Positions 2,154 through 29,778 of a stretch of DNA of 64,000 bases are shown here, piece after piece. Position 1 is the first letter of the stretch. Each line of letters starts with the position of its first letter. The notes below the pieces were generated by a model. It made no database searches. It was given only the letters and a program-made list of their open reading frames with translations, and was not told the origin of the DNA. This DNA is from Shigella phage ESh26, in sequence record ON528736; one strand, 5' to 3'. A program made the position numbers and the translations under genes.

Positions 2154-5100
2154 ATGGCCGAGATTAAAAGAAAGTTCAGAGCAGAAGATGGTCTGGACGC
2201 AGGTGGCGATAAAATAATCAACGTAGCTTTAGCTGATCGTGCCGTAGGAACTGACGGTGTTAACGTTGATTACCTAATTCAAGAAAATACAGTTCAACAA
2301 TACGATCCAACTCGTGGATATTTAAAAGATTTTGTAATCATTTATGATAACCGCTTTTGGGCTGCTATAAATGATATTCCAAAACCGGCAGGAGCTTTTA
2401 ATAGCGGACGCTGGAGAGCATTACGTACCGATGCTAACTGGATTACAGTCTCATCTGGTTCATATCAATTAAAATCTGGTGAAGCTATTTCGGTTAACAC
2501 TGCAGCTGGTAATGATATTACATTTACTTTACCATCTACTCCAATTGATGGTGATACTATCGTTCTCCAAGATATTGGAGGAAAACCTGGAGTTAACCAA
2601 GTTTTAATTGTAGCTCCAGTGCAAAGTATTGTAAACTTCAGAGGCGAGCAAGTACGTTCAGTACTAATGACTCATCCAAAGTCACAGTTAGTTTTAATTT
2701 TTAGTAATCGTCTGTGGCAAATGTATGTAGCTGATTATAGTAGAGAAGCTGTAGTTGTAACACCAGCGAATACTTATCAAGCGCAATCTAATGATTTTAT
2801 CGTACGTAGATTTACTTCTGCTGCACCGATAAATATTAAACTTCCGAGATTTGCTAATCACGGCGATATTATTAATTTCGTCGATTTGGATAAATTAAAC
2901 CCTCTTTATCATACAATTGTTACGACATATGATGAAACGACATCAGTACAAGAAGATGGAACTCATTCCATTGAAGGCCGTACATCGATTGACGGTTTCT
3001 TGATGTTTGATGATAATGAGAAATTATGGAGATTGTTTGACGGGGACAGTAAAGCACGTTTACGTATCATAACGACTAATTCAAATATTCGTCCAAACGA
3101 AGAAGTTATGGTATTTGGTGCAAATAACGGAACAACTCAAACGATTGAGCTTCAGCTTCCAACTAATATTTCTGTTGGTGATACTGTTAAAATTTCCATG
3201 AATTACATGAGAAAAGGACAAACGGTTAAAATCAAAGCTGCCGGTGAAGATAAAATTGCTTCTTCAGTTCAATTGCTGCAATTCCCAAAACGTTCAGAAT
3301 ATCCACCTGAAGCTGAATGGGTGACTGTCCAAGAATTAGTTTTTAATGGCGAAACTAATTATGTTCCAGTTTTACAACTTGCTTATATAGAAGATTCTGA
3401 TGGAAAATACTGGGTTGTACAACAAAACGTTCCAACCGTAGAAAGAGTTGATTCTTTAAACGATTCTACTAGAGCAAGATTAGGCGTGATTGCTTTAGCT
3501 ACACAAGCGCAAGCTAATGTCGATTTAGAAAATTCTCCACAAAAAGAATTAGCAATTACTCCAGAAACATTAGCTAACCGTACTGCTACAGAAACTCGTA
3601 GAGGTATCGCGAGAATAGCAACTACTGCTCAAGTGAATCAGAACACCACATTCTCTTTTGCTGATGATATTATCATCACTCCTAAAAAGCTGAATGAAAG
3701 AACTGCTACAGAAACTCGTAGAGGTGTTGCTGAAATTGCTACGCAACAGGAAACTAATGCAGGTACTGATGATACTACAATCATCACTCCTAAAAAGCTT
3801 CAAGCTCGACAAGGTTCTGAATCATTATCTGGTATTGTAACCTTTGTATCTACCGCAGGAGCTACTCCAGCTTCTAGTCGTGAATTAAATGGTACAAACG
3901 TTTATAATAAAAACACTAATAATTTAGTTGTTTCGCCTAAAGCACTGGATCAGTATAAAGCTACTCCAACGCAACAAGGTGCAGTAATTTTAGCAGTTGA
4001 AAGTGAAGTAATTGCTGGACAGAGTCAAGAAGGATGGGCAAATGCGGTTGTAACGCCAGAAACGTTACATAAAAAGACATCAACTGATGGAAGAATTGGT
4101 TTAATTGAAATTGCTACGCAAAGTGAAGTTAATACAGGAACTGATTATACTCGTGCAGTCACTCCTAAAACTTTAAATGACCGTAAAGCAACTGAAAGTT
4201 TAAGTGGTATAGCTGAAATTGCTACACAAGTTGAATTCGACGCAGGCGTCGACGATACTCGTATCTCTACACCATTAAAAATTAAAACTAGATTTGATAG
4301 TACTGATCGTACTTCTGTTGTTGCTCTATCTGGATTAGTTGAATCAGGAACTCTCTGGGACCATTATACCCTTAATATTCTTGAAGCAAATGAGACACAG
4401 CGTGGTACACTTCGTGTAGCTACACAGGTTGAAGCTGCTGCAGGAACATTAGATAATGTTTTAATAACTCCTAAAAAGCTTTTAGGTACTAAATCTACCG
4501 AATCGCAGGAAGGTGTTATTAAAGTTGCAACTCAGTCTGAAACTGTAACTGGAGCGTCAGCAAATACTGCTGTATCTCCAAAAAATTTAAAATGGATTGT
4601 ACAGAGTGAACCTACTTGGGCAGCTACTACTGCGATAAGAGGCTTTGTTAAAACTTCATCTGGTTCAATTACATTCGTTGGTAATGATACAGCTGGTTCT
4701 ACGCAGGACTTAGAGCTATACGAGAAAAATAGCTATGCAGTATCACCATATGAATTAAACCGTGTATTAGCAAATTATTTGCCATTAAAAGCAAAAGCTG
4801 CTGATACAAATTTATTGGATGGTCTAGATTCATCTCAGTTCATTCGTAGGGATATTGCACAGACGGTTAATGGTTCACTAACCTTAACCCAACAAACGAA
4901 TCTGAGTGCCCCTCTTGTATCATCTAGTACTGCTACGTTTGGCGGATCAGTTTCGGCAAACAGCACATTAACTATTTCTAATACTGGAACGGCAACTCGT
5001 CTGATTTTTGAGAAAGGACCTCAAACTGGAACTAACCCAGTACAGACGATGACTATCAGAGTTTGGGGAAATCAGTTTGGTGGCGGTTCAGATACAACAC

Positions 5101-27722: not shown

Positions 27723-27992
27723 TTAATTGAACAGTGGAGCGATGCGTTTCAGAAGAGTAGCAGCACCTTTGGCGAATTTTACATCATGAAAAACAGTTTC
27801 TTCTTCCGTTACAACACGAGCTTTAATGTTTTCACAATCCCAATTTTTACGAACAATCTTCAAAAGCTGCAGTAAATCTTTACATTCAGCAATATCGATA
27901 ACACATCCACGAGAATCTTCCATTATCGCACGATAACCGTAAGCCATACCATAATCGTTGAAAGATTGTTCGATGATAATTAAGTTTTCCAT
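27723..27992 (-). CDS. Hypothetical protein (89 aa)
   Basis: Track ORF starts at TTG inside UTR; ATG at 27992 follows cassette SD ggagaataaa (MENLIIIEQSFNDYG...). Confidence 0.5.
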   Translation of the reverse strand: MENLIIIEQSFNDYGMAYGYRAIMEDSRGCVIDIAECKDLLQLLKIVRKNWDCENIKARVVTEEETVFHDVKFAKGAATLLKRIAPLFN

Positions 27993-28035
27993 TTTATTCT
28001 CCAAGTTGTTTTCTGTATCAGTAGTTGATATTGAT

Positions 28036-28089: not shown

Positions 28090-28587
28090 TTATGCACAGC
28101 GAGCTTTGCTATAGTGTTTAATCCAACTTTCAGGAATGACTTTGTATGTTCCTAAAAATACCGCGTTGTACAACTTAACGCCATCTTCTACCCACTGATC
28201 GGTAATGTATGCACACATAGCGCGAGTACGATGTTTTTGAACAACACCTTCCTCATCTTCAGTAAATTCGAATTCATAAGGAGCAACGAACTTAATAGCT
28301 TGACCGAGTTTCCACTTAAAGTCTACGCCTACATGCGAAGTATCAATCGTTTCAATTCCTTTAGCAGGAACAGCTTTCAAAAACGCAGACTCAAGAAATT
28401 TCGCACGAACATAGCCAAACTGAGGTTTAGACTTTCCATCTTTAGGAATGATACGCACTTTTACTTCAGAATCTTCATCTTTAACACCGTGTTTAAGCTG
28501 AATGCTTACAATTTCAACCAATTTTCCTGCTGCTTTAGAGCGGGATTTATCAGATACACGAGCTAATTCACCAATATTAATAATCAT
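28090..28587 (-). CDS. Hypothetical protein (165 aa; motB position), paralogue of 28664..29206
   Basis: C-terminal motif YITDQWVEDGVKLYNAVFLGTYKVIPESW shared with the next ORF. Confidence 0.5.
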   Translation of the reverse strand: MIINIGELARVSDKSRSKAAGKLVEIVSIQLKHGVKDEDSEVKVRIIPKDGKSKPQFGYVRAKFLESAFLKAVPAKGIETIDTSHVGVDFKWKLGQAIKFVAPYEFEFTEDEEGVVQKHRTRAMCAYITDQWVEDGVKLYNAVFLGTYKVIPESWIKHYSKARCA

Positions 28588-28663
28588 AGTTATCTCTCAC
28601 TTGTTAAAAAGATTTTATACTCCACAGGACCATTATACTCTGGTCCCAAGAGTTTGTAAACTA

Positions 28664-29206
28664 TTAATTCAAAATAGCTACCACTGCACTACGAGGTACT
28701 ACACTAAAATCACCCGCATGAACAACGTTCAGAAGTTCAACACCATCTTCAATCCACTGGTCTGTTACCCAACCACAGACCGAAATAAATGGGGTCTTGA
28801 TAGCTACAGCACGAGTTAGAAGGTCAGTAGGATCGCATTCTTGGAAGAGGATAAGCTCTGCTTCAAAGACTATAGTTTTAATTACTTCATCATTATCTAA
28901 GCGTTGTGCTCGAATCACGTAAGCTTTATTCTTATCATGCCAATTACTTTTTGAAAAACTTTTAACCACAAACTCGCCTTCACCCAAAACACTGGTCAAT
29001 GCTTTATAACCCAAACTTAGTTCAGTAGTTTTAATTTCAGTTTCAACCAGTTTGTAGGTTTTGCCAATTTCGATGGTCCGAGCAGTCATAAAGGTTTCCT
29101 TAATTTCTAATGGTTTAACAAGAGTGCCGTACATGCTTGCTATATCCATATCAAATATTTTATCTATAGGATTTGGGGTGTATTCAGGATTATAATTAAA
29201 TTTCAT
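28664..29206 (-). CDS. Hypothetical protein (180 aa), paralogue of 28090..28587
   Basis: C-terminal WVTDQWIEDGVELLNVVHAGDFSVVPRSA matches the motif of the neighbour. Confidence 0.5.
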   Translation of the reverse strand: MKFNYNPEYTPNPIDKIFDMDIASMYGTLVKPLEIKETFMTARTIEIGKTYKLVETEIKTTELSLGYKALTSVLGEGEFVVKSFSKSNWHDKNKAYVIRAQRLDNDEVIKTIVFEAELILFQECDPTDLLTRAVAIKTPFISVCGWVTDQWIEDGVELLNVVHAGDFSVVPRSAVVAILN

Positions 29207-29208
29207 AA

Positions 29209-29721
29209 TTATCTCATTTCAATAAAATCTACAAGTTCAGCATGGGATTTGCGGAACATTACTTGGTGTCCGCCAATGATAACTTCATCTTCAGGAACTT
29301 CATAAATCGCAATGTACATTCCACGATCTTTTAAGTCTTCACGCTCTTCTCGGGTGAACCATCTCATCATATCATATTCATTAGCGAAAGCAAAATGATA
29401 TAATGAAATAAGCCACAATGGAATATAATTTTCAAATTGTGAATAATCTTTATTCCATTTAGTTTTAATAGCATCATTAGCATTTTCAACTAATAACTTA
29501 TCATCATGCGGAATAGGAATACTTTCATGGCTTTCATAATTATCGCTATGATGATGAAATGATGATGAATTAATACCACAAAATTTTAGCCAGGTTCGAG
29601 TTTTCATAGAATCAAATCCACGGTAAGGAGTTGATTGAACGCATAACTCTTGCCTAATTTTCACTATACCACTATCATCATTTAATGCGCTAAACGATGA
29701 TTCAACACGATAAATTTTCAT
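29209..29721 (-). CDS. Hypothetical protein (170 aa)
   Basis: Track ORF 29209..29760; ATG at 29721 (MKIYRVESSF...) sits downstream of early promoter. Confidence 0.5.
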   Translation of the reverse strand: MKIYRVESSFSALNDDSGIVKIRQELCVQSTPYRGFDSMKTRTWLKFCGINSSSFHHHSDNYESHESIPIPHDDKLLVENANDAIKTKWNKDYSQFENYIPLWLISLYHFAFANEYDMMRWFTREEREDLKDRGMYIAIYEVPEDEVIIGGHQVMFRKSHAELVDFIEMR

Positions 29722-29748
29722 TTTATTATCCTCAGTAGCTATGGTGTT

Positions 29749-29778
29749 ATAATACCACAACTAACCGAGGAAGTAAAC
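29749..29778 (-). promoter_or_regulatory. T4-type early promoter
   Basis: Minus strand GTTTAC-18 nt-TGG-TATTAT between dexA stop and next ORF. Confidence 0.6.

What the first reader, a model, noticed from the sequence alone, without database searches (positions are those of the whole stretch)
28090..29206. Adjacent paralogous early genes sharing a conserved C-terminal domain
The 165-aa and 180-aa ORFs have divergent N-terminal regions but share a C-terminal block: (A/V)(Y/W)(I/V)TDQW(V/I)EDGV(K/E)L(Y/L)N(A/V)V...(K/S)V(I/V)P(E/R)S. A tandem duplication with N-terminal divergence suggests a common effector or binding domain with different targeting, in the region that holds motB in T4.
Basis: seen in the sequence. 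Interest (0 to 1): 0.45.

Follow-up and report, generated by a model that had tools for sequence, protein, structure and literature searches.

The report
T4-type motB and motB.1 paralogues

Summary
The 165-aa ORF (28090-28587, minus strand) and the 180-aa ORF (28664-29206, minus strand) share a C-terminal block: 16/32 identical, BLASTP E 4e-11, and profile-profile 98.6% probability, E 5e-16, over about 53 columns.

The window is a Tequatrovirus (T4-like) genome. The 165-aa protein is MotB, 89% identical to T4 MotB. The 180-aa protein is a MotB.1-type protein at the T4 motB.1 position.

The shared C-terminal domain, the different N-terminal domains and a duplication origin were published by Son et al. 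2021 (PMC7827196). Pfam PF17613 already matches both proteins. The finding is therefore already known.

This analysis adds five points:
- The shared core is acidic in nearly all relatives and is the most conserved part of both families. This favours a partner-docking role over DNA binding (inference).
- KOW-like N-terminal domains occur with both subtypes of the C-terminal domain, which indicates domain swapping.
- A recurrent linear motif, D-x-D-[IV]-x-x-M-Y, is present.
- The 119-aa MotB.1 of the T4 reference record results from one extra G that 13 other T4-type records lack.

The parts
28090..28587 (-). motB gene (165 aa), modifier of transcription / DNA-binding early protein
   Evidence: 89% identity to T4 MotB over the full length. 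Pfam PF17613 at E 2.3e-99, covering residues 1-163. Annotated motB in close relatives.
28387..28587 (-). MotB N-terminal KOW/SH3-like domain (aa 1-67), basic
28093..28320 (-). MotB C-terminal domain (aa 90-165), the copy of the shared domain that carries a long hairpin insertion
   Evidence: hhalign aligns MotB 90-159 with residues 126-178 of the 180-aa protein. In the AF2 model the 10-residue blocks from 91 to 160 have mean pLDDT 83-94.
28126..28221 (-). Shared 32-aa block in MotB (aa 123-154: AMCAYITDQWVEDGVKLYNAVFLGTYKVIPES)
   Evidence: BLASTP segment. This is the most conserved stretch of the MotB family: 81% mean pairwise identity against 67% for the NTD.
28632..28660 (-). Promoter-like site TTTACA-17 nt-TATAAT between motB.1 and motB (T4 early-promoter type). 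The -10 hexamer lies in the loop of a short inverted repeat, GGACCA...TGGTCC.
   Evidence: Consensus scan, 11 of 12 matches. Sequence read. Conserved in T4 and KMB42. Function not tested.
28664..29206 (-). motB.1-type gene (180 aa)
   Evidence: It occupies the motB.1 position between motB.2 and motB. PHROG 2333 at E 4.3e-76. 232 homologues, mostly 177-183 aa. hhalign to the T4-type MotB.1 family gives 99.9%, E 4.8e-36.
28667..28840 (-). C-terminal domain of the 180-aa protein (aa 123-180), the minimal form of the shared domain; SH3/Tudor-like five-stranded barrel, acidic
28688..28783 (-). Shared 32-aa block in the 180-aa protein (aa 142-173: SVCGWVTDQWIEDGVELLNVVHAGDFSVVPRS)
   Evidence: BLASTP segment. 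Residues 144-176 have 98% mean pairwise identity across 115 homologues.
28841..29086 (-). N-terminal module of the 180-aa protein (aa 41-122), starting IEIGKTYKL; related to the T4 MotB.1 N-terminal (LSm-like) domain in its second half
   Evidence: hhalign aligns residues 74-122 with T4-type residues 36-86. The module occurs twice in 246-251-aa relatives. No Pfam match. Its structure was not predicted here.
29096..29167 (-). N-terminal leader with the linear motif FDMDIASMYGTLVKPL (aa 14-37)
   Evidence: The pattern D-x-[DN]-[IVTL]-x-x-[MA]-Y is found in 10 of the 25 representatives scanned, which have three different N-terminal architectures. Residues 1-40 have 92% mean pairwise identity in the family.

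Best explanation
What it is (shown, about 0.95). The two ORFs are the early genes motB and motB.1 of a T4-like (Tequatrovirus) phage.
- MotB consists of a basic KOW/SH3-like N-terminal domain, a disordered linker and a C-terminal small beta-barrel.
- The 180-aa protein consists of a short conserved leader with a linear motif, a MotB.1-type N-terminal module and the same C-terminal barrel without MotB's hairpin insertion.
- The shared barrel is an old duplication. The DNA of the two cores is only about 51% identical. The N-terminal heads are exchangeable modules.

How it most likely works (inferred, about 0.4).
- The shared C-terminal barrel has an SH3/Tudor-like fold. I propose it is a common docking or oligomerisation module that brings two different heads to the same partner or complex on the infected cell's nucleoid.
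- MotB's basic KOW-like head supplies the tight non-specific DNA binding shown experimentally for T4 MotB. T4 MotB co-purifies with H-NS/StpA on DNA, is toxic when overexpressed and doubles burst size.
- The MotB.1 head is LSm/SH3-like in T4 and supplies another, still unknown, binding activity.

Shown: homology, architecture, predicted fold, charge distribution and conservation pattern. Inferred: the docking role and the assignment of DNA binding to the N-terminal domain.
For: Identity:
- 92-96% DNA identity to Tequatrovirus genomes.
- Gene order dexA - motB.2 - motB.1 - motB - cef - goF.
- 89% identity to T4 MotB.
- Pfam and PHROG matches.
- hhalign to T4-type MotB.1 at 99.9%.

Paralogy: BLASTP E 4e-11 and hhalign E 5.3e-16. 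It is published in PMC7827196.

Fold:
- The model of the domain alone has pLDDT 89.2. Its strand order, with a 3-10 turn between the last two strands, is typical of SH3-like barrels.

Docking rather than DNA binding:
- The region from 25 residues before the TDQW motif to the C-terminus is neutral or acidic in all 25 representatives computed (net 0 to -12). It is -5 in the 180-aa protein.
- MotB's N-terminal domain is +5, pI 9.75.
- The shared block is the most conserved part of both families (98% and 81% mean pairwise identity, against 78% and 67% for the N-terminal domains). This is expected for a surface that must fit a conserved partner.

Modularity:
- The domain is always C-terminal, behind heads of 65-195 residues.
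- KOW-like heads occur with both tail subtypes, for example in Klebsiella, Edwardsiella and Enterobacter T4-like phages, where the gene is annotated motB.

MotB biology (DNA binding, H-NS/StpA co-purification, toxicity, burst size): PMC6070864 and PMC7827196.
Against: - No experiment assigns any activity to the C-terminal domain. Son et al. state that either domain of MotB could bind DNA.
- MotB's own copy is near neutral (+1) and carries basic residues in its hairpin insertion and C-terminal tail.
- The fold assignment rests on predicted models, not solved structures. No relative has a solved structure.
- A delta-motB.1 T4 phage has no burst-size or latent-period phenotype, so the function of MotB.1 is unknown.
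- Kim et al. could not obtain confident AlphaFold3 homodimer or hexamer models for MotB.1. That was the 119-aa form, which lacks most of the shared domain.
Confidence: 0.8

Rival explanations
1. The shared C-terminal domain is itself the nucleic-acid-binding domain (OB-fold/cold-shock-like, as proposed from HHpred). MotB and MotB.1 would then both be DNA- or RNA-binding proteins, and their different heads would modulate or target that binding.
Confidence: 0.25
2. The shared domain is purely a self-association module. It would let MotB and MotB.1 form homo- and hetero-oligomers, so that MotB.1 modulates MotB's action on the nucleoid.
For: The genes are adjacent and co-conserved in many Tevenvirinae; 40 genomes besides T4 carry both (PMC7827196). 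The domain is highly conserved. T4 MotB.1 ran as monomer and dimer on non-reducing SDS-PAGE.
Against: That dimer was seen with the 119-aa form, which lacks most of the shared domain, and only without reducing agent, which suggests a disulfide. AlphaFold3 gave no confident homomultimers. More distant T4-like phages carry a single gene with this domain, so hetero-oligomerisation cannot be its original role.
Confidence: 0.2
3. The similarity is a chance or low-complexity match between unrelated small ORFs.
For: The block is short (32 aa), and the remaining parts of the two proteins do not align.
Against: BLASTP E 4e-11, a Pfam score above the curated cut-off and hhalign E 5.3e-16. A profile of the domain finds only 36 proteins at E <= 0.001 among 1.84 billion representatives; those below about 1e-8 are small proteins of this family, while the long repetitive proteins among the weaker hits look like chance matches. 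The block is the most conserved part of both families.
Confidence: 0.01

Closest known systems
T4 MotB (gene motB, Pfam PF17613, PHROG 1671)
   Same: The 165-aa ORF is its orthologue: 89% identity over the full length, the same position downstream of motB.1 and upstream of cef, and the same two-domain layout.
   Different: It is three residues longer in the hairpin of the C-terminal domain, with a few substitutions. A 93-aa ORF lies between motB and cef in this phage, where the T4 reference has only a spacer.
T4 MotB.1 and the MotB.1 groups of Son et al. 2021 (categories 2-4), PHROG 2333
   Same: Same genomic position. The C-terminal domain is nearly identical (DPTDLL...GWVTDQWIEDGVELLNVVHAG..SVVPRSAVVAILN). 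The second half of the N-terminal module can be aligned.
   Different: The protein here is 180 aa, against 143 aa for intact T4 MotB.1 and 119 aa in the reference record. It has an extra leader of about 40 residues carrying the motif FDMDIASMYGTLVKPL. Its N-terminal module is not detectably similar to T4's by BLASTP. It probably corresponds to the category with 'another distinct NTD' in Son et al.; I could not check their table.
Tudor / PWWP / chromo / KOW small beta-barrels (SH3-like fold)
   Different: Sequence identity is 6-19%, with no sequence-level relationship. The presence of an aromatic cage or any ligand site was not tested. This is a resemblance of fold, not family membership.
OB-fold cold-shock-like domain (SCOPe b.40.4.5), the published prediction for the MotB CTD
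   Same: Both are small all-beta barrels of similar size that often bind nucleic acids.

Membership tests
MotB (Pfam PF17613 / PHROG 1671), 165-aa ORF | Full-length match to the family profile above the curated cut-off | tested here: met
   330.3 bits against a cut-off of 25, residues 1-163 on profile positions 1-160 of 162. PHROG 1671 at E 4.5e-76. 89% identity to T4 MotB.
MotB (Pfam PF17613 / PHROG 1671), 165-aa ORF | Position in the T4-type early region between motB.1 and cef | tested here: met
   The gene order matches T4 and annotated relatives.
MotB (Pfam PF17613 / PHROG 1671), 165-aa ORF | Tight non-specific DNA binding, H-NS/StpA co-purification, toxicity in E. coli | not testable with these tools
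   Shown only for T4 MotB (PMC6070864, PMC7827196). Inferred here from 89% identity.
MotB.1 group (Son et al. 2021; PHROG 2333), 180-aa ORF | MotB.1-type C-terminal domain (DPTDLL...GWVTDQWIEDGVELLNVV) with a non-KOW N-terminal part | tested here: met
   Alignments. hhalign to the T4-type MotB.1 family at 99.9%, E 4.8e-36. No KOW-like SRSKAAG motif in the N-terminus.
MotB.1 group (Son et al. 2021; PHROG 2333), 180-aa ORF | Gene immediately upstream of motB | tested here: met
   28664-29206 lies 76 nt upstream of motB on the same strand. T4 has the same layout.
MotB.1 group (Son et al. 2021; PHROG 2333), 180-aa ORF | LSm-like N-terminal fold (Kim et al. 2025, for T4 MotB.1 residues 1-82) | tested here: inconclusive
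   Only the second half of the module aligns with T4's (residues 74-122 with 36-86), and BLASTP finds no similarity in the N-terminal part.
Pfam motB, applied to the 180-aa ORF as a whole | Match over the whole family profile | tested here: not met
   Only profile positions 120-153 of 162 match (residues 142-175, 34.2 bits). It shares a domain with MotB but is not a MotB orthologue. Database names such as 'transcriptional regulator' for it are carried over from that partial match.
OB-fold / cold-shock DNA-binding domain (for the shared domain) | OB topology and structural similarity to cold-shock/eIF5A-C domains | tested here: not met
Tudor/SH3-like small barrel (for the shared domain) | Five-stranded barrel superposable on Tudor/KOW/PWWP domains | tested here: met
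Tudor/SH3-like small barrel (for the shared domain) | Aromatic cage or another defined ligand-binding site | not tested
   Conserved aromatic residues exist (W in TDQW; Y/L and F/H in LYNxVF / LLNVVH). Their spatial arrangement could not be inspected with these tools.

The most novel reading that the evidence does not exclude
The shared Tudor/SH3-like tail is a dedicated docking module for one host or phage target, for example H-NS/StpA-bound nucleoid or RNA polymerase. T4-like phages would plug interchangeable nucleic-acid-binding heads (KOW-like, LSm-like, single or doubled) onto it. The conserved linear motif D-x-D-[IV]-x-x-M-Y would act as a second, independent contact. A corollary follows from the T4 reference sequence, which truncates MotB.1 inside this tail. 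Kim et al. 2025 worked with a 13.8-kDa (119-aa) MotB.1, so their published biochemistry on MotB.1 appears to have used a protein lacking the module. The negative results might change with the intact 143-aa protein.
Probability: 0.2. Interest if true: 0.45.

Novelty: already known. Interest (0 to 1): 0.15.

Why it matters
The paralogy adds nothing new. It is in the literature (Son et al. 2021) and is implicit in Pfam and PHROG annotation.

Three by-products are of modest practical value to people who work on T4 early proteins:
- The shared domain looks like a Tudor/SH3-type barrel with an acidic, extremely conserved surface. Experiments should therefore look for a protein partner rather than DNA binding by this domain.
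- The family is modular, so the heads and the tail can be studied separately.
- The 119-aa MotB.1 in the T4 reference record, the size of the 13.8-kDa protein used in published expression experiments, is cut short by a single extra G. Thirteen other T4-type records lack that G. Intact MotB.1 is 143 aa and contains the complete shared domain.

Tried and rejected
- Chance similarity: rejected by the BLASTP, Pfam and hhalign statistics.
- Recent gene conversion between the two tails: rejected. The DNA of the cores is only about 51% identical, and the best stretch is 27 nt at 81%.
- Further copies of the domain in the window: none found in a six-frame profile search.
- Relation of the neighbouring motB.2 ORF (29209-29760) or the 93-aa ORF (27723-28004) to the pair: no Pfam match, and their PHROG families are unrelated.
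- Solved structures of relatives: none. Only spurious hits at E 0.0045 and 1.3.
- Foldseek against viral models: it returned the family itself and then generic small barrels.
- Long repetitive proteins among the weak hits of the representative search (P0259, P0262, P0264-P0266, P0269, P0270): judged chance matches of short repeats such as GYATEQWV.
- My automatic pattern for 'KOW-like' heads missed several obvious cases (P0246, P0247, P0253, P0257). The classification of these heads rests on reading the sequences.

Full report
**Observation**

The two ORFs are present exactly as described, on the minus strand: 28090-28587 (165 aa) and 28664-29206 (180 aa).
- BLASTP of one against the other gives a single significant segment, residues 123-154 against 142-173. 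It has 16/32 identities, 24/32 positives and no gaps, at E 4e-11 for the single comparison. The N-terminal parts do not align.
- Pfam's motB model (PF17613) matches the whole 165-aa protein (330 bits). It also matches residues 142-175 of the 180-aa protein at 34.2 bits, above the curated cut-off of 25.
- The PHROG MotB-like family matches residues 121-178 of the 180-aa protein at E 1.1e-16.
- I built family alignments from 232 and 138 database homologues. Profile-profile comparison gives 98.6% probability, E 5.3e-16. It aligns residues 126-178 of the 180-aa protein with residues 90-159 of the 165-aa protein, which carries a 14-18-residue insertion.
- The shared unit is therefore a whole domain of about 55-70 residues, not just a 32-residue block.
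- No other ORF in the window carries the domain.

**What the genes are**

The region is 92-96% identical in DNA to many Tequatrovirus genomes.
- In annotated relatives and in T4 itself the gene order on this strand is dda, dexA.2, dexA.1, dexA, motB.2, motB.1, motB, cef, goF.
- The 165-aa protein is 89% identical to T4 MotB over its full length.
- The 180-aa protein lies at the motB.1 position. It aligns with T4 MotB.1 by BLASTP only over the start of the shared domain. Profile-profile comparison with a T4-type MotB.1 family alignment gives 99.9% probability, E 4.8e-36, from residue 74 to the C-terminus. This includes the second half of the N-terminal module.
- A strong promoter-like site of T4 early type (TTTACA, 17 nt, TATAAT) lies in the 76-nt spacer between the two genes. 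It is conserved in T4.

**What is already published**

Son et al. 2021 (Viruses 13:84, PMC7827196) state that T4 MotB and MotB.1 share a conserved C-terminal domain and have different N-terminal regions. [quoted passage not shown] They report that 40 other phage genomes carry both genes and that both are early genes in a non-essential region.
- The same group showed that T4 MotB binds DNA tightly and non-specifically, co-purifies with H-NS and StpA, is toxic in E. coli and doubles burst size (PMC6070864, PMC7827196).
- Kim et al. 2025 (PMC12152347) predicted an LSm/SH3-like fold for the N-terminal domain of T4 MotB.1. They found no phenotype for a motB.1 deletion.
- These are the only two papers in the searchable library that mention motB.1.
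- The finding is therefore correct but already known.

**Structure of the shared domain**

An AlphaFold2 model of the window's MotB (39-sequence alignment, mean pLDDT 78) shows three parts:
- a small N-terminal barrel (residues 8-67);
- a disordered linker (69-86);
- an all-beta C-terminal domain (97-159), with 10-residue-block mean pLDDT of 83-94 across residues 91-160.

- The model has mean pLDDT 89.2. It has five strands with a short 3-10 turn between strands 4 and 5, which is the SH3-like arrangement.
- This disagrees with the OB-fold assignment that Son et al. derived from HHpred. It rests on a predicted model only.
- No relative has a solved structure.

**Clues to function**

- Charge. 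The shared core is neutral or acidic in all 25 representatives for which I computed charge. Its net charge is -5 (pI 4.2) in the 180-aa protein, whose overall pI is 4.9. MotB's KOW-like N-terminal domain is +5 with pI 9.75.
- Conservation. The shared block is the most conserved part of both families. Mean pairwise identity is 98% for residues 144-176 of the 180-aa family, against 78% for its N-terminal module. It is 81% for MotB residues 124-155, against 67% for the MotB N-terminal domain.
- Inference (about 0.4). MotB's DNA binding resides mainly in the basic N-terminal domain. The shared barrel is a docking or association module for a conserved partner.
- Main rival (about 0.25). The tail itself binds nucleic acid.
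- Second rival (about 0.2). The tail is purely an oligomerisation module.
- None of these has been tested experimentally.

**Family anatomy**

A profile of the shared domain, searched against 1.84 billion representative proteins, finds only 36 proteins at E <= 0.001. By reading the sequences I judge about 25 of them genuine. All of these are small proteins with the domain at the very C-terminus, behind 65-195 other residues.

Reading these sequences shows a modular family:
- KOW-like heads with the MotB-type tail (FKWKL...KLYNIVF);
- KOW-like heads with the MotB.1-type tail (DPTDLL...ELLNVV). These are found in Klebsiella, Edwardsiella, Kosakonia and Enterobacter T4-like phages, where the gene is annotated motB;
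- T4-type MotB.1 heads;
- heads of the type in this window, sometimes doubled.

The combination of one head type with both tail subtypes argues for domain replacement rather than simple N-terminal divergence after duplication. The DNA of the two tails in the window is only about 51% identical, so the duplication is old and there has been no recent gene conversion. A short linear motif, D-x-[DN]-[IVTL]-x-x-[MA]-Y, recurs in 10 of the 25 representatives scanned, which have three head types. It is followed by T-x-x-x-P in several of them. In the window's 180-aa protein it lies at residues 19-33 (FDMDIASMYGTLVKPL).

**A by-product: the T4 reference motB.1**

- T4's annotated MotB.1 is 119 aa and ends ...GWVTDQWIGRWR, in the middle of the shared motif.
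- The T4 reference DNA has one extra G (TGGATTGGAAGATGG, against TGGATTGAAGATGG in this window and in phage KMB42). The next frame continues DGVELLNVVHAGEYSVVPRSAVVAILN and then stops.
- I ran tblastn with the frame-repaired 143-aa protein. It matches 13 other T4-type records at 100% in a single piece. These include several independent T4 sequences, T4T, RB55 and RB59. Only AF158101.6 and NC_000866.4 need two pieces.
- One such record, MT984581, annotates the 143-aa gene and lacks the extra G.
- In the protein collection the 143-aa form was seen on 256 contigs and the 119-aa form on 2.
- Neither paper on MotB.1 mentions a frameshift or truncation. Kim et al. worked with a 13.8-kDa MotB.1, which is the 119-aa form.
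- Whether the extra G is a sequencing error or a strain-specific mutation cannot be decided here.

**Verdict**

Interest is low. The most novel reading still open combines three ideas:
- The tail is a dedicated docking module with swappable heads.
- The linear motif provides a second contact.
- Published MotB.1 biochemistry used a tail-less protein.

I give this combined reading about 0.2 probability, and moderate interest if true.

Noticed in passing
L003 (T4 NC_000866.4) locus 3292-3303, compared with window 28735-28750: The T4 reference motB.1 (119 aa) carries one extra G inside the codons for the shared TDQWIEDGV motif, and this truncates the protein. Thirteen other T4-type records (T4, T4T, RB55, RB59) encode an intact 143-aa MotB.1 with the full C-terminal domain. 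The 143-aa form is on 256 contigs and the 119-aa form on 2. The two papers on MotB.1 do not mention this.
   Followed up: yes
window 29096-29167 (aa 14-37 of the 180-aa protein): A conserved linear motif, D-x-D-[IV]-x-x-M-Y (FDMDIASMYGTLVKPL here), recurs in linkers or leaders of 10 of the 25 representatives scanned that carry the shared domain, behind three different kinds of N-terminal head. It may be a short interaction motif. Nothing about it was found in the papers read.
   Followed up: partly
window 28632-28660, minus strand: A near-consensus early-type promoter (TTTACA-17-TATAAT) lies between motB.1 and motB. Its -10 hexamer sits in the loop of a short inverted repeat (GGACCA GAGTATAA TGGTCC). 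It is conserved in T4, while KMB42 differs in the loop.
   Followed up: no
window 27723-28004, minus strand: A 93-aa ORF (PHROG 3720, unknown function) lies between motB and cef. It is annotated as hypothetical in close relatives. The T4 reference has only a spacer of about 170 nt there.
   Followed up: partly
proteins P0248 (251 aa) and P0250 (246 aa) from the representative search: These relatives of the 180-aa protein carry two N-terminal modules in tandem before the shared C-terminal domain (in P0248 both begin I-x-[IV]-x-K-T-Y-Q-L). The head is therefore a repeatable unit.
   Followed up: no
database annotations of the 180-aa family: Homologues of the 180-aa protein carry names such as 'transcriptional regulator', 'motB.-1' and 'putative adenylribosylating enzyme'. 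The first of these probably comes from the partial Pfam motB match. None is supported by evidence seen here. RefSeq also calls T4 dexA.2 a 'dextranase', which looks like a name-based error.
   Followed up: no
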